Part shown: one piece after another, positions 4,257 through 64,000 of the stretch | Numbering within the stretch: position 1 is the stretch's first letter | How the letters are laid out: each line of letters opens with the position of its first letter | NCBI GenBank assembly: GCA_035479295.1 | Contig: DATIIV010000020.1 | Location: forward strand, 10,027-74,026 | From: Candidatus Saccharimonadia bacterium | GTDB lineage: Bacteria; Patescibacteriota; Saccharimonadia; UBA4664 | Reading direction: 5' to 3' | DNA length: 64,000 nt | Notes under the pieces: model-generated | What the model was told of the DNA's origin: nothing | Database searches by the model: none | The model's input: only the letters and a program-made list of their open reading frames with translations | Program-made: the position numbers and the translations under genes

Positions 4257-6335
4257 ATGGCCCGCGAATACTCGCTCGAAAACACCCGTAACATCGGCAT
4301 TATCGCCCACATCGACGCTGGTAAGACTACCACCACTGAGGGCATCCTTTATCGCACCGGCAAGACGCACAAGATCGGCGAGGTCCACCAGGGCGAGGCC
4401 ACTATGGACTGGATGGCGCAGGAGCAGGAGCGCGGTATCACCATTACCGCCGCCGCCACGACCTGCTTCTGGAAGGGCAAGCGCATCAACATCATCGACA
4501 CGCCCGGCCACATCGACTTCACGGTTGAGGTTGAGCGTAGTTTGCGCGTACTCGACGGCGCCGTCACCGTCTTCGACGGCAAGATGGGCGTGGAGCCGCA
4601 GTCCGAGACCGTCTGGCGCCAGGCCGACAAGTACGGCGTGCCGCGCATTTGTTTCATTAATAAGATCAACCAGACCGGCGGCGACTTCTACAAGAGCCTC
4701 GAGAGCATTCACGAGCGACTGAGCAAGCGGGCCTACGCCATTCACCTGCCGATCGGCTTCGAGCAAGAGATCAACGGCGTCATCGACCTGATCGAGATGA
4801 AGGCCTATACCTACAAGGACTACAAGGACCACGAGCTCATCGAGGGCGAGATCCCGGCCGACATGCTCGAGAAGGCCACCAAGTACCGCAACCACCTGAT
4901 CGAGGCGGCGGTCGAGGCCGACGATGAGCTGATGGAGAAGTACCTGGAGGGTCACGAGCTCACCATCGATGAGCTCAAGCTGGCCATTCGCAAGAGCGTG
5001 CTGACCGGCACCTTCTTCGCCGTCAGCGGCGGCGATGGTCGCGGCGTCATCGTTGAGAAACTGCTCGACGCCATGGTCGACTTCTTGCCCAACCCGCTCG
5101 ATGTCGGCAGCGTCTGGGGCACCGATCCCAAGACCGGCAACGAGCTTGAGCGCAAGCCCAGCGACGAGGAGCCGTTCTCGGGCTTGGCTTTCAAGATTGC
5201 CACTGACCCGTTCATCGGTAAGCTGGCCTTCTTCCGGGTCTACTCGGGCGTGGTTAAGAGTGGTTCGTACATTCTAAATGCCTCGACCGGCGAGCGCGAG
5301 CGCATCGGCCGCCTGGTGCTGATGCACGCCAACTCGCGCGAAGAGGTGCAAGAGGTGCACGCCGGCGAGATTGCGGCGGCCGTCGGCCTTAAGGGCACCA
5401 CCACCGGCAATACCCTCACCGATGTCGACCACCCGGTCATTCTCGAGAGCATTACCTTCCCCGAGCCGGTTATCTCTATCGCCGTCGAGCCCAAGACCAA
5501 GAGTGACCAGGAGAAGATGGGCAACGCTCTGCAGCGCCTGGCCGAGGAGGACCCGACCTTCCGCGTCCACACCGAGGAACAGACGGGGCAAACCATCCTG
5601 GAAGGTATGGGCGAGCTCCATCTCGACATCCTCGTCGACCGCATGAAGCGTGAGTTCAAGGTTGAGGCCAACATCGGTCGGCCGCAGGTCGCTTACCGTG
5701 AGACCATTAAGAAAGAGGCCAAGGGCCAAGGCAAGTTTGTACGCCAGACCGGTGGCTCCGGCCAGTACGGCGATGTCTGGATCGAGCTGACGCCGCTGGA
5801 GCCGGGCGAAGGCTTCGTGTTTGAGAACGGTATCGTTGGCGGTGTGGTGCCGCGCGAGTACATTAAGCCGGTCGAAGAGGGCATTAAGGATGCTATGTCG
5901 ACCGGTATCTCGGCCGGCTTCCCGGTGGTGGATGTTAAGGCCAAGCTATACGACGGTAGCTACCACGATGTTGACTCGTCCGAGATCGCCTTCAAGCTGG
6001 CAGGCCGTCTAGCCTTTAACGAGGTAGCCAAGAAGGCCGACCCAATCATTCTCGAGCCGATCATGAAGGTTGAAGTAACGGTGCCCGAGGAGTACATGGG
6101 CGACGTTATTGGCAACCTTAACTCTAAGCGTGGCCGCATCGAAAGCATGGAGGATCGCGCCGGCGCCAAGATTATTGATGCCAAGGTGCCGCTGGCCGAG
6201 ATGTTTGGCTACACTACCACGCTGCGCTCCATGACGCAGGGCCGTGCCTCCAACTCCATGGAGTTCGACCACTACGAGGAAGTGCCGCGCAACGTGGCCG
6301 AGGAGATCATCGCCAAGCGCACCACCAAGGCGTAA
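4257..6335 (+). CDS. fusA: elongation factor G
   Basis: [20 protein letters not shown] and NKID G-domain motifs, and an overall EF-G-like sequence. Start chosen at [14 protein letters not shown] (AAAGGA upstream) rather than the ORF-track ATG at 4182. Confidence 0.93.
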
Positions 6336-33143: not shown

Positions 33144-33211
33144 TTGCGGCGGCCGAACTTGCTAAGATGACCGGGCAAACGGCGCCGCCCGAGCGGCCGC
33201 CAGCCCACTGT

Positions 33212-33286
33212 GCCGACGTAGCTCAATGGTAGAGCAACGGTTTTGTAAACCGTTGGTTGGGGGTTCAATTCCTCTCGTCGGCTCCA
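33212..33286 (+). tRNA. tRNA-Thr (anticodon TGT), CCA encoded
   Basis: Cloverleaf GCCGACG/CGTCGGC acceptor stem, anticodon loop TTTGTAA, T-arm GGTTCAATTCC. Confidence 0.85.
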
Positions 33287-33335
33287 GAATTTATTTACTC
33301 ACACCGATCTCTTTGTTTTTGGTATAGTTAAACGT

Positions 33336-34088
33336 ATGAAGAATATTCTTATCACTGGCGTATCCAAAGGTATTGGCCGTACGCTGGCTCATCATTTTCA
33401 CGGCCTTGGTTATACTATTTTTGGTGGCTATAAATGGTCTGATGCGTATAAAGAAGAACAAGCCTTAGCAGAAAGCCTAAAAGCCGAGTTGCCAAACCTA
33501 ACGCTCCTACCCTTTGACCTGGCTGACAGAGAACTGCTAGACCAACTGATTCGGCGCATGAAGGGCGTTCAGCTTGCTGCCATAGTGAATAACGCTGGAG
33601 AGTTTATCCCGAATAATTTTGCTCAGTTTAGCCCCGATACCTGGGATCGGAGCATCGCTGTCAATATGACCGCCCCGCTTTTGCTTGTTTTTGGGCTTCG
33701 CGATAATCTAACAAGCAACGCGAGCATCGTTAATATCGCCAGCACTGACGCATATTACGCTGCGTACGACGATATCGGTTATGCTGCAAGCAAAGCAGGA
33801 CTTATTAGTGTCACCAAAAGCTTGGCGGCCGCGCTTGCAAGCCGGAACATTCGCGTTAATGCCATCGCGCCAGGCTGGGTAGATACCGAGATGGCGGAAA
33901 ATGCGGCTGTTAACGAGTTTGCGCACTTTCAAACTCCCTTAGGTAGAAATGCAACGACACAAGAGATAGCCGGTGTAGTCGAATTTCTCGTCTCCTCCAA
34001 GTCATCTTTCATTAACGCTGCGGTCATTAATGCAGATGGCGGCTATTCGAGCGTCGACTACGTGGTAAAAAAAGAGGCAGAAGGTTAG
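33336..34088 (+). CDS. SDR family oxidoreductase (short-chain dehydrogenase)
   Basis: TGVSKGIGR, NNAG and YAASKAG catalytic Tyr/Lys motifs. The gene is clearly lower in GC (~48%) than its surroundings. Confidence 0.85.
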   Translation: MKNILITGVSKGIGRTLAHHFHGLGYTIFGGYKWSDAYKEEQALAESLKAELPNLTLLPFDLADRELLDQLIRRMKGVQLAAIVNNAGEFIPNNFAQFSPDTWDRSIAVNMTAPLLLVFGLRDNLTSNASIVNIASTDAYYAAYDDIGYAASKAGLISVTKSLAAALASRNIRVNAIAPGWVDTEMAENAAVNEFAHFQTPLGRNATTQEIAGVVEFLVSSKSSFINAAVINADGGYSSVDYVVKKEAEG

Positions 34089-60597: not shown

Positions 60598-61983
60598 ATG
60601 AAACCACTTACCACTATTCAAACTATCAAAGCGACCGGCCAGACTGTAATTGTGCGCGGGTGGGTGCACACGGTGCGCGATATGGGCAAGATCACCTTTA
60701 TTGACCTGCGCGATCAGACCGGTTTGCTGCAGGTAGTAGTGCCGGGCGATTATGAATTGCCCAAGCTCGGCGTCGAATACGTGATCGAGGTAGAGGGCAA
60801 AGTCCGCGAGCGCGGTGAACGCTTCCGCAATCCCAAGCTGGCCACCGGTGAGGTGGAGCTGGGTGCCAGCCGCGTCACCGTGCTAAATGAGGCGGCCGAG
60901 CTGCCGTTTGAGGTCAAAAAAGACACGCGCGACATCAACGAGGAGCTGCGGCTGAAGCACCGCTACCTGGATCTGCGGAGCGAGCGGATGGCGGCTAATC
61001 TGCGATTGCGCTCGCGCATTACCAAGTTCATTCGCGACTATCTGCACGAGCAGGACTTTACCGAAGTGGAGACGCCACTGCTGACCAAAGGTACGCCCGA
61101 AGGTTCGCGCGAGTTCTTGGTACCGTCGCGGCTGCACGCCGAGGAGTTTTACGTCTTGCCGCAATCGCCGCAGCAGTTTAAGCAGCTGCTAATGGTGGGC
61201 GGCGTCGGCCGCTACTACCAAATTGCCCGCTGCCTGCGCGACGAGGACCAGCGCGGCGACCGCCAGCTCGAGTTCACCCAGGTGGACATGGAGCTCAGTT
61301 TTGTGGAGCAAGAAGACATTCTGGCCCTGAACGAAGCCCTGATGATTGCCTTGGTTAAGGAGTTATTCCCCGATAAGCACATCACCCAGACGCCGTTTCC
61401 CCGCCTTACGTACGCCGAGTCGATGGAGAAGTATGGCTCCGACAAGCCCGACTTGCGTCAGGATAAAGATGACCCTAACGAGCTCGCCTTCTGCTGGGTG
61501 ACCGATTTTCCGATGTTCGAGATTAATACCGAGAGCAGCAAGGTCGATGCGGTGCACCACCCGTTTACGGCGCCCAAGGCCGACGACACAGCATTGCTTG
61601 AGTCCAAGCCCATGGACGTGCGGGCCGATGCCTACGACATCGTGCTCAATGGCTACGAGGTGGGCGGCGGCTCTATTCGTATCCACGACGGCGCGCTGCA
61701 GCACCGAGTGTTTGAGCTGCTCGGCCTGGGCAAGCACGAGATCGAGGCTCGCTTTGGCCACATGCTAGAGGCTTTTCGCTACGGCGTGCCACCGCATGGC
61801 GGCATCGCCTACGGCCTCGACCGGCTAGTGATGATCCTGGCCAACGAGCCGAATATCCGCGAAGTGATCGCCTTCCCCAAGACGGGCGATGGCCGTGATC
61901 CGCTAACTGGCGCCCCGAACGTTCCGGCTGACTCGGCGCTGCATGAGGCCCATATTAAGACGGTGCCGCCCAAGAAGCGCTAG
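60598..61983 (+). CDS. aspS: aspartate--tRNA ligase, short archaeal/eukaryote-type (no GAD insertion domain)
   Basis: OB anticodon-binding N-terminus, FRNPKL, QIARCLRDEDQRGDRQLEFTQVDMELSF (motif 2), GYEVGGGSIRIHD, C-terminal AFPKT. 461 aa. Confidence 0.85.
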   Translation: MKPLTTIQTIKATGQTVIVRGWVHTVRDMGKITFIDLRDQTGLLQVVVPGDYELPKLGVEYVIEVEGKVRERGERFRNPKLATGEVELGASRVTVLNEAAELPFEVKKDTRDINEELRLKHRYLDLRSERMAANLRLRSRITKFIRDYLHEQDFTEVETPLLTKGTPEGSREFLVPSRLHAEEFYVLPQSPQQFKQLLMVGGVGRYYQIARCLRDEDQRGDRQLEFTQVDMELSFVEQEDILALNEALMIALVKELFPDKHITQTPFPRLTYAESMEKYGSDKPDLRQDKDDPNELAFCWVTDFPMFEINTESSKVDAVHHPFTAPKADDTALLESKPMDVRADAYDIVLNGYEVGGGSIRIHDGALQHRVFELLGLGKHEIEARFGHMLEAFRYGVPPHGGIAYGLDRLVMILANEPNIREVIAFPKTGDGRDPLTGAPNVPADSALHEAHIKTVPPKKR

Positions 61984-62025
61984 CGGTGCCGAGTTAAGTT
62001 ACTCTGAGTTTTGCACTATTTCGTG

Positions 62026-62505
62026 GCTTTATGAAGAATCGAAGAGGCCAAAGTTTGGTAGGGGATGCCCTCCTCAATGGCTTTTGCCCTTAAGCGGTAC
62101 AAGTCGCGTTCCGACAGGCGAATATTGATGTTCTTGGTTTTGTTGAGAGTATTTTTGGCATACTGCTGTAGAGCTTTTTTACGTTCGGCCACATCCGGCG
62201 CGCTCTGAAGCTGGCCGGCCTCAAAGTCGTCCAGGATCGTCTGCTCCTTGTATGTACTGTTTAGTTGCTTTTCGACTTGGAATAATGGTTTTTAAAAAGA
62301 CCTTGGCGTCGTCTTCGACGTAGGGGACTAAATAGGCGTAGCTGCGGCAGGCAATGACTAAAACTCGTTGACTCGGGTATCGATTCGCATTGGGGTGCGT
62401 AATGTCATTCAGGATGCCTCCTTCATCGATTGCTGTGAGGATGTCCTCGAAGCTAGTACTACGTTCCGTCTTTAGCTTGGAGTTTTTCGCCTCGTCCCAA
62501 TCGAA
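62026..62505 (-). pseudogene. BrnT (DUF497) toxin / BrnA (ribbon-helix-helix) antitoxin pair, apparently decayed: no canonical start codons
   Basis: Minus-strand translation gives ...YFDWDEAKNSKLKTERSTSFEDILTAIDEGG...VLVIACRSYAYLVPYVED...RKATKQ (BrnT-like). An overlapping frame gives ...KNINIRLSERDLYRLRAKAIEEGIPYQTLASSILHKATK* (BrnA-like). ~47% GC patch. Absent from the ORF track. Confidence 0.5.
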
Positions 62506-62869
62506 GTATTTAAAGCATAGGGCTTGCTCGTCATCATGAGACTCAAGAAGAGGCCATCGTGTATGTGCCGCTCTTTACGCGACCCGAGTGGAAAGGCACG
62601 CCACGTATGGCTTATCGAACAGTAGAAGATTTTAATAATACCTTTGAGTGGGCCGATGACCGAATGCCGTAAGAAGCGACCCTCCTGGCATAGGCATATC
62701 TTCCCAAAGTCTCACATAGAATATTCACTATATTCTATATAACAGCTCTAGCAGAAATATGACCGCTCTCAGCCAAAAGAAAAAGGGGTCGTGTGGTTGC
62801 AAGATAGCAACCACTCGACCCCGGCGGACGGGGAAAGAGAGGGCGGGCAGGGCGCCGCGAGCCTTGGGC

Positions 62870-63487
62870 TCAGCTCGTTGTGGCTGACGGCTCGTGGTCC
62901 AGGCGGACCAGCGCGGCACCGGCGGTCACGACGATGACGATACTAGCGACAGTGTAGCCGGCGGGTAACATCACGTTCAGGTTAAGCTGCATGACTAGGG
63001 TGACCAGGACTGCCTGGATGGCCTCGGCGACCGGGCCGCTGAACTCGGCGGCGGCCAGAGCGATCAGGGACGTTGCCGCGATGGTGGCGCCGACCTGCAA
63101 GGCACGGGCACTACTCAGGGCACTGATGATAAGCAGCTCGACGCGGTCGATCAGCTTGCTGGCGTAGCGCGACTTCAGGGTCGCCAGGGTGACTACGAAG
63201 GTCACGCCGGCGGATCCCGCTACTTCCAGCCCGAACGGCAGGCCGGTCGACAGGTACTCGACGCCGTAGCCCTGGGCTAACAGCACCAGGGCGGGACTAA
63301 CCGCACCGGCCAGGCTCACCGTGAAAGCGCCTAAGCGCCCATACATGGCCAGCACGACCACCCGTCGCCCGCAAAGTTCAGGGGCGACGATGGTGACCAG
63401 CAGCGCCAGCGTGAGCGTGGCGACCAGGACGGTGGGCAGACAGATCATCGGCAGCACAGTTCTCTCTTTTCTCAAGTCTCTGGGCAA
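62870..63487 (-). CDS. hypothetical polytopic membrane protein
   Basis: At least five hydrophobic helices. Confidence 0.45.
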   Translation of the reverse strand: MPRDLRKERTVLPMICLPTVLVATLTLALLVTIVAPELCGRRVVVLAMYGRLGAFTVSLAGAVSPALVLLAQGYGVEYLSTGLPFGLEVAGSAGVTFVVTLATLKSRYASKLIDRVELLIISALSSARALQVGATIAATSLIALAAAEFSGPVAEAIQAVLVTLVMQLNLNVMLPAGYTVASIVIVVTAGAALVRLDHEPSATTS

Positions 63488-63680
63488 GCGCAGGGCGGGC
63501 TTACCTCATATATACGATAGCATATTTTAGATAAAAACACAATAGATGCGACTGTCGCTGAGCCTCAATCGCGAAAAGTTATTTAGGGCGTGACAAGTTG
63601 CATCGTTTGTGTTACAGTTAATAAAATAATTTGCGCTGCCGGTGGACCTATGAGCCGGGGCGTTTTAATGTGGAATTCCT

Positions 63681-64000
63681 ATGCCCGAGACACTCACATC
63701 GACCGATCGTATCCGCAACGTCGCCATTATTGCTCACGTTGACCATGGCAAGACTACCCTAGTGGACGGCCTGCTCAAGCAGTCCAAGACCTTCCGCGAG
63801 AACCAGGCCGAGATGCAGCAGACCGCCATTCTCGACACTGGTGACCTGGAGCGCGAGCGTGGCATTACCATTAGCGCCAAGACGATTGCTGTTAACCATG
63901 ACGGCTACAAGATCAACATTATCGACACGCCGGGCCACGCCGACTTCTCGGGCGAGGTGGAGCGAACGCTCAATATGGCCGATGGCTGCCTGCTGATCGT
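63681..64000 (+). CDS. typA: translational GTPase TypA/BipA, 3' end runs off the window
   Basis: By-eye translation [35 protein letters not shown]...[14 protein letters not shown]...[16 protein letters not shown] is closer to BipA than to LepA or EF-G. Confidence 0.8.

What the first reader, a model, noticed from the sequence alone, without database searches (positions are those of the whole stretch)
62026..62672. Decayed BrnT/BrnA (DUF497 / ribbon-helix-helix) toxin-antitoxin module in a low-GC patch, invisible to the ORF track
Between aspS and a membrane-protein gene, no ORF of at least 60 aa is called over ~750 nt. The minus strand nevertheless encodes a clear BrnT-like toxin body (YFDWDEAKN...SFEDILTAI...VLVIACRSYAYLV...ARKATKQ). 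Overlapping its stop is a BrnA-like antitoxin C-terminus (KNINIRLSERDLYRLRAKAIEEGIPYQTLASSILHKATK). Neither frame has an ATG/GTG/TTG start at the expected place. The only nearby ATG is out of frame, pointing to recent frameshift decay. A further +-strand fragment MAYRTVEDFNNTFEWADDRMP* (62607-62672) resembles another BrnT N-terminus. GC is ~47%, so the module was probably acquired and is now being eroded.
Basis: partly seen in the sequence, partly recalled or inferred. Interest (0 to 1): 0.5.

Follow-up and report, generated by a model that had tools for sequence, protein, structure and literature searches.

The report
Dead toxin-antitoxin cassette, two deletions
The gap after aspS holds the wreck of a horizontally acquired BrnT-like toxin / ribbon-helix-helix antitoxin pair and a neighbouring small gene, disabled by two deletions; this is ordinary gene decay in a Saccharimonadia genome, not a live or new system.

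Summary
The core observation is real. The minus strand of 62019-62511 encodes codons 2-90 of a BrnT-like toxin and codons 11-86 of its CopG-type ribbon-helix-helix (RHH) antitoxin. They are 81% and 87% identical to an intact pair in another Patescibacteria contig. The toxin family has more than 3000 members and the antitoxin family about 1280, mostly from Saccharimonadia.

The damage is not a frameshift. A 40-nt deletion at 62244-62249 removed the toxin stop, the antitoxin ATG and ten antitoxin codons. At 62511-62517 the toxin's codon 2 is joined head-to-head to about codon 19 of a + strand DUF1653-like small gene (62517-62672). Both start codons and any promoter are therefore missing.

The toxin frame has no ATG, GTG or TTG anywhere. 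Only a 58-aa GTG ORF survives in the antitoxin frame. An independent assembly is base-for-base identical.

pN/pS is 0.11 and neither frame has an internal stop, so inactivation came late relative to the divergence from the nearest intact copy. GC is 47% against 58% for the window, and relatives have no such cassette beside aspS; both fit acquisition. The remnant is ordinary and of low interest.

The parts
62019..62246 (-). Antitoxin remnant: codons 11-86 of an 86-aa CopG-type RHH antitoxin. The stop codon is at 62016-62018. The start codon and first 10 codons are deleted.
   Evidence: tblastn with the intact L001 antitoxin gives 87% identity over residues 11-86. Pfam CopG_antitoxin scores 24.9 bits, E 3.6e-5. 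There are 1282 homologues; the 119 other than the window's own ORF among the best 120 are 85-92 aa.
62016..62192 (-). Residual 58-aa GTG ORF inside the antitoxin remnant. It covers helix 29-50 and the RHH domain. Public records list it as hypothetical protein HSX02582.1 / VLI05_04710.
   Evidence: ORF list. Exact look-up finds a single-member cluster. It is the only protein shorter than 85 aa among the 120 best antitoxin hits. No Shine-Dalgarno-like motif lies before the GTG (sequence).
62244..62249 (-). Junction of a 40-nt deletion with GAG microhomology. Relative to intact modules, GAGGCATATCATGACTACATATTACGAGTTAGATAAAGAC is missing. That segment holds the toxin's last codons and stop, and the antitoxin's ATG and first 10 codons. 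The antitoxin's AAGGAG Shine-Dalgarno now sits 6 nt before an ATC codon and 9 nt before a CTG codon.
   Evidence: DNA alignment A2 with L001 and L002 shows a 40-column gap. Intact layout: toxin 5001-5282, antitoxin 5279-5539, 4-nt overlap.
62245..62511 (-). Toxin remnant: codons 2-90 of a 93-aa BrnT-like (DUF497) toxin. The frame then runs on through the deletion to a TGA at 62221-62223. There is no start codon.
62511..62517 (.). Breakpoint where toxin homology (minus strand, from codon 2) meets DUF1653-like homology (plus strand, from about codon 19). The toxin start codon, the small gene's start and first ~18 codons, and all sequence between them are absent. Possible TATTT(A) microhomology.
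   Evidence: Alignments A2 and A3. tblastn limits are 62514 for the toxin and 62517 for the small gene. 84 of 87 related loci have ATG, GTG or TTG at the aligned toxin codon 1; the window has TTT.
62517..62672 (+). 5'-truncated DUF1653-like small gene: residues ~16/19 to the end of a 68-71-aa protein, with stop TAA at 62670-62672. A GTG at 62559 would allow only a 37-aa product.
   Evidence: Four homologues, P0121-P0124, at 67-75% identity, E 3e-18 to 1e-14. Sequences. Pfam DUF1653 19.8 bits vs gathering score 23.5. DNA alignment A3. tblastn residues 16/19-66/69.
62785..62822 (-). Intrinsic terminator of the upstream membrane-protein gene (62870-63487, minus strand): a 16-bp GC-rich hairpin followed by UUUUUCUUUU. 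It insulates the remnant from read-through transcription.
   Evidence: Inverted repeat I1. The RNA fold of 62755-62870(-) that contains the hairpin has MFE -49.1 kcal/mol, z -4.35, and 0 of 200 shuffles fold as well.

Best explanation
The 47%-GC patch between aspS and the membrane-protein gene is a small, horizontally acquired islet in a Candidatus Saccharimonadia genome. It once carried a type II toxin-antitoxin operon and, divergently, a DUF1653-like small gene. The operon had the toxin first: a 93-aa BrnT-like toxin with a RelE-type fold, followed by an 86-aa antitoxin with a C-terminal ribbon-helix-helix domain, the two overlapping by 4 nt.

Two deletion-type lesions killed it. One joins the toxin's codon 2 directly to about codon 19 of the small gene. 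That removed both start codons and whatever promoter lay between them. The other is a 40-nt deletion flanked by GAG microhomology. It removed the toxin stop, the antitoxin ATG and ten antitoxin codons.

The toxin cannot be translated because its frame has no start codon. The antitoxin survives only as a start-less 76-codon frame with an internal 58-aa GTG ORF. No promoter-like site is found, and a strong terminator sits upstream.

Shown: homology, the position and nature of both lesions, absence of start codons, composition, reproducibility in a second assembly.

Inferred:
- The toxin was disabled before or together with the antitoxin. Losing the antitoxin while an active toxin remains would be lethal.
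- The lesions came late relative to the divergence from the nearest intact copy.
- The remnant now has no function.
For: - Homology: more than 3000 toxin homologues, best 81% identity. About 1280 antitoxin homologues, best 87%. Family HMM 155.7 bits on this piece only.
- Intact architecture in relatives: 93-aa toxin plus 86-aa antitoxin overlapping by 4 nt. Of 87 related loci, 84 have ATG, GTG or TTG at the aligned toxin start and 82 have a downstream antitoxin.
- Lesions: 40-nt gap and loss of homology upstream of codon 2. A DUF1653-like remnant abuts the toxin. No canonical start in the toxin frame.
- Not an artefact of one assembly: Logan assembly L171 and GCA_964451975.1 are identical to the window over 8346 and 8403 nt.
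- Timing: pN/pS is 0.11 for both genes against L001, with pS about 0.68. There are no internal stops. Window-unique versus L001-unique amino-acid changes are 8 vs 4 for the toxin and 1 vs 4 for the antitoxin.
- Acquisition: GC 0.47 against a window mean of 0.58, and GC3 0.44-0.62 against 0.75-0.81 in flanking host genes. None of 80 aspS loci in related genomes carries the module.
- No expression signals: no sigma-70-like site on the minus strand in 61900-63700. Intact relatives have TTGACA-17-TATAAT just before the start. A terminator lies upstream. No Rfam family or tRNA is present.
Against: - No read-level or expression data could be examined. The two assemblies may derive from the same read set, so their independence is limited.
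- The remnant frames show no sign of relaxed constraint, and the antitoxin's C-terminal 49 residues are identical to those of intact copies. This fits very recent inactivation, but it equally fits continued use of the antitoxin part.
- The TA module and the DUF1653-like gene are not neighbours in any other sampled locus. A single deletion across a divergent promoter region is therefore one of several possible histories for the junction.
- The promoter scan covers only sigma-70 consensus sites.
Confidence: 0.85

Rival explanations
1. Orphan antitoxin kept in service. The toxin is dead, but a shortened antitoxin is still made and works as a ribbon-helix-helix repressor or as an 'anti-addiction' factor against incoming copies of this very common Saccharimonadia cassette. 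It could be the 58-aa product from the GTG at 62192, or a 73-75-aa product from the ATC or CTG that the deletion placed 6 and 9 nt after the AAGGAG Shine-Dalgarno.
For: - The antitoxin frame is open for 76 family-aligned codons with only one window-unique amino-acid change.
- The C-terminal 49 aa are identical to L001 and L002 although synonymous sites are near saturation.
- The predicted RHH region, about residues 48-85, is wholly retained. It weakly resembles CopG and Arc.
- The Shine-Dalgarno of the intact antitoxin survives next to near-cognate codons.
Against: - There is no canonical start at the Shine-Dalgarno, and the GTG has no Shine-Dalgarno.
- No promoter-like site was found, and a terminator lies upstream.
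- The ancestral promoter region is gone.
- Helix 9-19 is lost from the 58-aa form. It probably belongs to the toxin-binding part (inference).
- Among the best 120 homologues no other short form exists, so this is not a recurrent, selected architecture.
- The sequence conservation is equally explained by recent inactivation.
Confidence: 0.1
2. Dead on arrival. The cassette was never functional in this genome. A DNA fragment that began at the toxin's codon 2 was pasted in by illegitimate recombination next to, or into, a DUF1653-like gene, and the 40-nt deletion came before or after that. This shares the 'remnant' verdict with the best explanation and differs only in history.
For: - Homology starts exactly at codon 2 with no trace of the family's promoter.
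- The TA module and the DUF1653-like gene are neighbours nowhere else.
- Relatives lack the module beside aspS.
Against: - GC3 of the remnants (0.53 and 0.62) is higher than in intact homologues elsewhere (0.40-0.49), while pN/pS stays at 0.11. This suggests some residence under selection in a GC-rich host.
- A simple insertion into the small gene would leave that gene's 5' part on the other side of the insert, but only 32 nt separate the antitoxin stop from the aspS stop.
Confidence: 0.2
3. A live module hidden by sequencing or assembly error, or rescued by recoding. Removing one T from the TTT at 62512-62514 (CTTT on the coding strand) would put the ATG (complement of 62516-62518) in frame, giving MLKYFDWDE. 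Alternatively, an RF2-like +1 shift at AUG CUU UAA A would do the same.
For: - The motif ATG-CTT-TAA-A precedes the toxin's AAA-TAC codons.
- A few family members carry one or two extra N-terminal residues.
Against: - That ATG belongs to the Ile-Gly codons of the opposite-strand DUF1653-like remnant.
- There is no Shine-Dalgarno and no promoter before it.
- The 40-nt deletion that removes the antitoxin start cannot be a homopolymer error, and a live toxin without its antitoxin would be lethal.
- Two assemblies agree base for base.
- None of the 87 related loci uses such a start.
Confidence: 0.02

Closest known systems
[quoted passage not shown] 2012, J Biol Chem 287:12098; BrnT structure PDB 3U97)
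   Same: - The gene order is toxin first and antitoxin second.
- The toxin is about 90 aa with the N-terminal F/Y-x-W-D-x-x-K-N motif and the C-terminal S-x-R-K-A-T motif.
- The antitoxin is a small DNA-binding protein. In Brucella it neutralises the toxin in a 2:2 complex and autorepresses the operon (as summarised in PMC10714953).
   Different: - Sequence similarity is marginal. Pfam BrnT_toxin scores 22.4 bits for the window and 26.5 for the intact relative, against a gathering score of 34.5.
- Where BrnT-type toxins have the Lys-His pair reported to matter for RNase activity (PMC10714953), the whole Patescibacteria family has Glu-Arg (alignment to 7VD7; invariant R17).
- The antitoxin matches CopG_antitoxin PF12441 better than BrnA PF14384.
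- The window copy has no start codons, no promoter and a 40-nt internal deletion.
Patescibacteria/Saccharimonadia 'BrnT family toxin' + 'CopG family antitoxin' pairs, as named in public records (for example P0021, P0023, P0058, P0211, P0240; intact loci L001-L005, L172, L173)
   Same: This is the family the remnant belongs to. Identity to the nearest intact pair is 81% for the toxin and 87% for the antitoxin. The order is the same. The sequence is low-GC even in GC-richer contigs.
   Different: Intact members are 90-98 aa plus 85-92 aa, each with a canonical start. In the closest relatives the two genes overlap by 4 nt. A TTGACA-17-TATAAT promoter ends a few nt before the toxin start. The window copy lacks all of these.
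Toxin of the Salmonella Typhimurium toxin-antitoxin complex PDB 7VD7
   Different: Identity is only 16-17%. It has the K-H-G motif where this family has E-R-x. No paper on 7VD7 was found in the held library.
DUF1653 (PF07866) small proteins
   Same: The + strand remnant and its four full-length homologues align to the DUF1653 profile across the G-L-A-R-H/S-x-x-T-x-E-E-x-V-V-Y core.
   Different: All scores are just under the gathering score (19.1-23.2 vs 23.5 bits). The window copy lacks the first ~18 residues and its start codon.

Membership tests
BrnT toxin / DUF497 (PF04365) | The Pfam profile match reaches the curated gathering score. | tested here: not met
   The window frame scores 22.4 bits (E 1.5e-4), full profile 1-76/77, against a gathering score of 34.5. 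The intact relative P0001 scores 26.5 bits. Many homologues carry a precomputed PF04365 hit, so this is a divergent branch rather than an unrelated family.
BrnT toxin / DUF497 (PF04365) | BrnT-type RelE-like fold. | tested here: met
BrnT toxin / DUF497 (PF04365) | The Lys-His pair reported as important for RNase activity is conserved (PMC10714953, citing Heaton 2012). | tested here: not met
   The profile alignment to 7VD7 places E-R of this family opposite K17-H18. R17 is invariant and E16 is at least 90% conserved across 102 sequences. That alignment has E 0.009, so the residue equivalence is tentative.
BrnT toxin / DUF497 (PF04365) | Ribonuclease activity and growth inhibition that the partner protein neutralises. 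| not testable with these tools
   This needs expression and RNase assays on an intact family member.
Functional type II toxin-antitoxin operon | Two complete ORFs with start codons, co-transcribed from an autoregulated promoter. | tested here: not met
   There is no ATG/GTG/TTG in the toxin frame. The antitoxin start and 10 codons are deleted. No promoter-like site was found. Intact relatives have all of these.
BrnA antitoxin (PF14384) | The Pfam profile match reaches the gathering score. | tested here: not met
   15.7 bits (E 0.02) against a gathering score of 26.1 for the window frame. The intact L001 antitoxin scores 15.8 bits.
CopG antitoxin (PF12441), ribbon-helix-helix | Profile match, plus a C-terminal beta-alpha-alpha RHH domain. 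| tested here: inconclusive
   24.9 bits (E 3.6e-5) against a gathering score of 28. Most of the 120 best homologues carry a precomputed PF12441 hit and the name 'CopG family antitoxin'. The model has pLDDT 75 with helices at 56-69 and 73-85. The best fold matches are CopG and Arc, with prob 0.82 but E above 1.
DUF1653 (PF07866) | The Pfam profile match reaches the gathering score. | tested here: inconclusive
   The window fragment scores 19.8 bits and P0121 scores 23.2 bits, against a gathering score of 23.5.

The most novel reading that the evidence does not exclude
The deletion-shortened antitoxin is still expressed, either from the GTG at 62192 or from the ATC/CTG now placed behind the surviving AAGGAG. 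It would be retained as a stand-alone ribbon-helix-helix protein that represses, or neutralises, incoming copies of the BrnT-like cassette that is widespread in Saccharimonadia. That would make it an 'anti-addiction' relic in an ultra-small episymbiont genome.
Probability: 0.08. Interest if true: 0.4.

Novelty: new member of a known kind. Interest (0 to 1): 0.15.

Why it matters
The main value is for annotation.

- Public records list only a 58-aa 'hypothetical protein' here. It should be read as part of a pseudogenised toxin-antitoxin cassette, with a second pseudogene (DUF1653-like) beside it.
- The locus gives a clean example of how a streamlined Saccharimonadia genome disposes of an acquired addiction module. 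The route is short microhomology deletions that remove starts and promoters. It is not point mutation or frameshift.
- The BrnT-like family that is abundant in Patescibacteria is a divergent branch. It has Glu-Arg in place of the Lys-His pair, and its antitoxin DNA-binding domain is unusually conserved. Both points may merit study on intact members.

None of this changes current understanding of toxin-antitoxin biology.

Tried and rejected
- **Second BrnT fragment on the + strand.** Rejected. There is no family HMM hit even at E<=100 with filters off. It is DUF1653-like.
- **Frameshift as the cause of the missing toxin start.** Rejected. Homology to intact modules stops at codon 2, and the sequence beyond it is another gene on the other strand.
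- **RF2-like +1 recoding at ATG-CTT-TAA-A.** Considered and rejected, for the same reason and for lack of a Shine-Dalgarno or promoter.
- **Toxin-antitoxin fusion created by the 40-nt deletion.** Checked by frame arithmetic and translation. The frames stay out of register, and the toxin frame ends at the TGA at 62221-62223.
- **Synteny in relatives.** 80 aspS loci were fetched from genome contigs. None has the module, and the closest (71% AspRS identity) has unrelated genes downstream, so no orthologous intact copy is available.
- **Closer relatives in metagenome contigs.** The best was only 64% identical. This was useful for family statistics only.
- **Non-coding RNA or tRNA integration site.** Nothing was found.
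- **Flanking repeats of a mobile element.** Only short chance-level repeats were found.
- **NCBIfam.** No relevant hit.
- **PDB sequence search with the antitoxin.** Nothing significant.
- **Heaton 2012 (PMC3320955).** The library does not hold it. Its content is cited via PMC10714953 and from memory.
- **Literature on TA pseudogenes in Saccharibacteria.** No papers found.
- **Other low-GC stretches of the window.** They look ordinary.

Full report
**What is in the sequence**

Between the stop of aspS (61981-61983, + strand) and the stop of a minus-strand membrane-protein gene (62870) lie about 890 nt with no ORF of 60 aa or more inside them.

One frame is open from 62574 to 62224 and contains KYFDWDEAKN...IIPSRKATKQY. 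Another is open from 62291 to 62019 and ends ...NINIRLSERDLYRLRAKAIEEGIPYQTLASSILHKATK.

GC of 61990-62780 is 0.470 against 0.582 for the whole window. This is the lowest 800-nt stretch in the 64 kb (mean 0.583, sd 0.041).

**Is it more than chance?**

Pfam alone is lukewarm, with every hit below its gathering score:

| Pfam family | Bits | Gathering score |
|---|---|---|
| BrnT_toxin | 22.4 | 34.5 |
| CopG_antitoxin | 24.9 | 28 |
| BrnA_antitoxin | 15.7 | 26.1 |

NCBIfam gives nothing relevant. The large protein collection settles the question.

- The toxin frame has more than 3000 homologues. The best is 81% identical and 93 aa long. Almost all come from Saccharimonadales or other Patescibacteria, and several are named 'BrnT family toxin' or 'DUF497'.
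- The antitoxin frame has 1282 homologues, the best 87% identical. They are named 'CopG family antitoxin' or 'CopG/RHH'.
- An HMM built from 120 toxin homologues scores this piece at 155.7 bits (E 3e-47) and hits nothing else in the six-frame translation of the window.

**What an intact copy looks like**

The contigs carrying the closest homologues show a 93-aa toxin gene followed by an 86-aa antitoxin gene, overlapping by 4 nt (ATGA).

In 87 related loci the codon aligned to toxin residue 1 is distributed as follows:

| Aligned first codon | Loci |
|---|---|
| GTG | 59 |
| ATG | 23 |
| TTG | 2 |
| CTG | 2 |
| at a contig edge | 1 |

Of these loci, 82 have the antitoxin downstream. Four of the five exceptions simply run off the contig.

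Several relatives have a textbook TTGACA-17-TATAAT promoter ending 6-10 nt before the toxin start.

**The two lesions**

The DNA alignment of the window's minus strand with two intact loci shows about 79% nucleotide identity to L001 through both genes, with two defects.

1. **A 40-nt deletion at 62244-62249.** The missing segment is GAGGCATATCATGACTACATATTACGAGTTAGATAAAGAC in L001. It holds the toxin's last codons and stop, and the antitoxin's ATG and first ten codons. GAG occurs at both edges, which suggests a microhomology deletion. The frames stay out of register, so no fusion protein results. The toxin frame runs on to a TGA at 62221-62223.
2. **Loss of similarity upstream of toxin codon 2** (AAA, complement of 62509-62511). 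The aligned 'start' is TTT. The toxin frame contains no ATG, GTG or TTG in its 97 codons or in the 21 open codons upstream.

**What lies beyond the breakpoint**

It has four clear homologues of 68-71 aa at 67-75% identity, E 3e-18 to 1e-14. These are weak DUF1653 (PF07866) matches at 19-23 bits against a gathering score of 23.5.

The window copy aligns from residue 16/19 to the stop, so the first ~18 codons and the ATG are absent.

The toxin's codon 2 is therefore joined head-to-head, across 62511-62517, to the interior of another gene. Both starts and any intergenic promoter have been lost.

The 'out-of-frame ATG' is the complement of the GC-ATA (Ser-Ile) codons of that gene. It is not a displaced toxin start.

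The family HMM does not hit the + strand fragment even at E<=100 with all filters off.

**Artefact?**

The window is from contig CAYVKC010000002.1 of GCA_964451975.1. The same proteins occur in a Candidatus Saccharimonadia MAG (HSX02581.1, HSX02582.1).

A separate Logan assembly of run SRR9179560 is identical to the window at all 8346 compared positions, including the whole remnant.

A 40-nt deletion and a gene-to-gene junction are not the kind of error that homopolymer miscalls produce. I could not inspect reads, and the assemblies may share reads.

**Age and origin**

Against the nearest intact pair (L001), pN/pS is 0.11 for both genes with pS about 0.68. There are no internal stops, and every column invariant across the family alignment is also kept in the window copy.

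With two outgroups, window-unique versus L001-unique amino-acid changes are 8 vs 4 for the toxin and 1 vs 4 for the antitoxin. Neither difference is significant.

Nearly all of the divergence therefore accrued under purifying selection, and the lesions are late relative to that divergence.

GC3 of the remnants is 0.44-0.62, against 0.75-0.81 in aspS, the membrane gene and the trxB-like gene. The family is low-GC in every host sampled.

None of 80 aspS loci from related genomes has the module. The closest has 71% AspRS identity and carries unrelated genes downstream. This fits horizontal acquisition by this lineage.

The module and the DUF1653-like gene are neighbours nowhere else. I therefore cannot tell whether one deletion removed a divergent promoter region or whether the fragment arrived already truncated.

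**Expression signals**

- No sigma-70-like site is found on the minus strand in 61900-63700.
- Directly upstream on the minus strand, the membrane gene ends in a 16-bp GC hairpin plus U-run (62785-62822). The folded 62755-62870(-) stretch has MFE -49.1 kcal/mol and z -4.35.
- No Rfam family or tRNA is present.
- The only callable ORF is the 58-aa GTG ORF at 62016-62192, which has no Shine-Dalgarno.
- The deletion left the antitoxin's AAGGAG 6 nt before an ATC and 9 nt before a CTG. Those are near-cognate starts at best.

**Family placement**

An AlphaFold2 model of the window's toxin body has pLDDT 95.6.

| Search | Hit | Score |
|---|---|---|
| Foldseek | 7VD7 toxin | TM 0.61 |
| Profile search of PDB sequences | 7VD7 only | E 0.009 |

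The profile alignment to 7VD7 puts the family's nearly invariant Glu-Arg opposite the Lys-His pair. That pair is reported to matter for RNase activity in BrnT-type toxins (PMC10714953).

The antitoxin model has pLDDT 75. It shows helices at 9-19 and 29-50 and a C-terminal RHH-like beta-alpha-alpha at about 48-85. That domain weakly resembles CopG and Arc.

The pair therefore works like BrnT/BrnA in outline. It sits in a divergent Patescibacteria branch, and its antitoxin is better filed under PF12441 than under BrnA.

**Mechanism**

In intact relatives, the inference from homology to BrnTA is as follows (Heaton 2012, recalled from memory and via PMC10714953). The toxin is a RelE-fold ribonuclease that arrests translation. 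The antitoxin binds it and, through its RHH dimer, represses the operon.

In the window nothing of this can operate. The toxin cannot be initiated. The antitoxin lacks its start and N-terminus. The promoter is gone.

Losing an antitoxin while the toxin is active is lethal. The junction at 62511-62517 that killed the toxin therefore most likely preceded or accompanied the 40-nt deletion (inference).

**Verdict**

Its mechanism (frameshift) and its second BrnT fragment are wrong, and 'BrnA' should read 'CopG-type RHH antitoxin'.

The locus is an ordinary pseudogenised cassette plus a second pseudogene. The only mildly interesting open possibility, at about 8%, is that the shortened RHH protein is still made and useful.

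Noticed in passing
window 62517-62672 (+): This is a 5'-truncated DUF1653-like small gene. Its full-length homologues P0121-P0124 are 68-71 aa and 67-75% identical. It is fused head-to-head to the toxin remnant. Only four homologues were found in the 5.8-billion-protein collection, so it belongs to a rare small-protein family.
   Followed up: yes
window 62716-62738: A perfect 9-nt palindrome, ATAGAATAT-5-ATATTCTAT, lies in the 40%-GC spacer between the DUF1653-like stop and the terminator hairpin. Its role is unknown; it could be an operator or a remnant of the acquired islet.
   Followed up: no
window 62785-62822 (-): A strong intrinsic terminator follows the membrane-protein gene (62870-63487): a 16-bp GC stem with UUUUUCUUUU after it. 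The simple terminator scan missed it; the repeat finder and the RNA fold found it.
   Followed up: yes
L002:4930-5000, L088, L089 (upstream of the toxin start): Intact relatives carry TTGACA-17-TATAAT promoters that end only 6-10 nt before the toxin start. The toxin mRNA would therefore be leaderless or nearly so. The spacers are AT-rich with partial dyad symmetry and may be antitoxin operators.
   Followed up: partly
alignment A4 (toxin family), residues 16-17 of the window body: The whole Patescibacteria BrnT-like family has Glu-Arg (R invariant) where 7VD7 and BrnT-type toxins have the Lys-His pair implicated in RNase activity. The catalytic chemistry may differ.
   Followed up: partly
window 62019-62165 (-) vs L001:5393-5539 and L002:5393-5539: The C-terminal 49 residues of the antitoxin are identical in three copies whose synonymous sites are near saturation (pS 0.67-1.0), while the toxins differ by 20-30%. 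An antitoxin DNA-binding domain more conserved than its toxin is unusual.
   Followed up: partly
L144:2929 and L154:2290: Two metagenome contigs with the same sequence have CTG at the position aligned to the toxin start. Either they use a non-canonical start or they are another inactivated copy.
   Followed up: no
window 60598-61983 (+): AspRS is the short 461-aa form. Its nearest relative in the species-representative genome set is only 71% identical, so the source lineage has no close sampled representative there. The public name is Candidatus Saccharimonadia. The window's GC of 58% contrasts with 40-55% in the other Patescibacteria loci fetched here.
   Followed up: partly
window ~12700, ~22800, ~33200-33400, ~38000, ~45600: These are the other 800-nt stretches with GC below 0.50. 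At a glance they are intergenic regions, small ribosomal/infA-type genes and a probable tRNA region, not further islets.
   Followed up: partly
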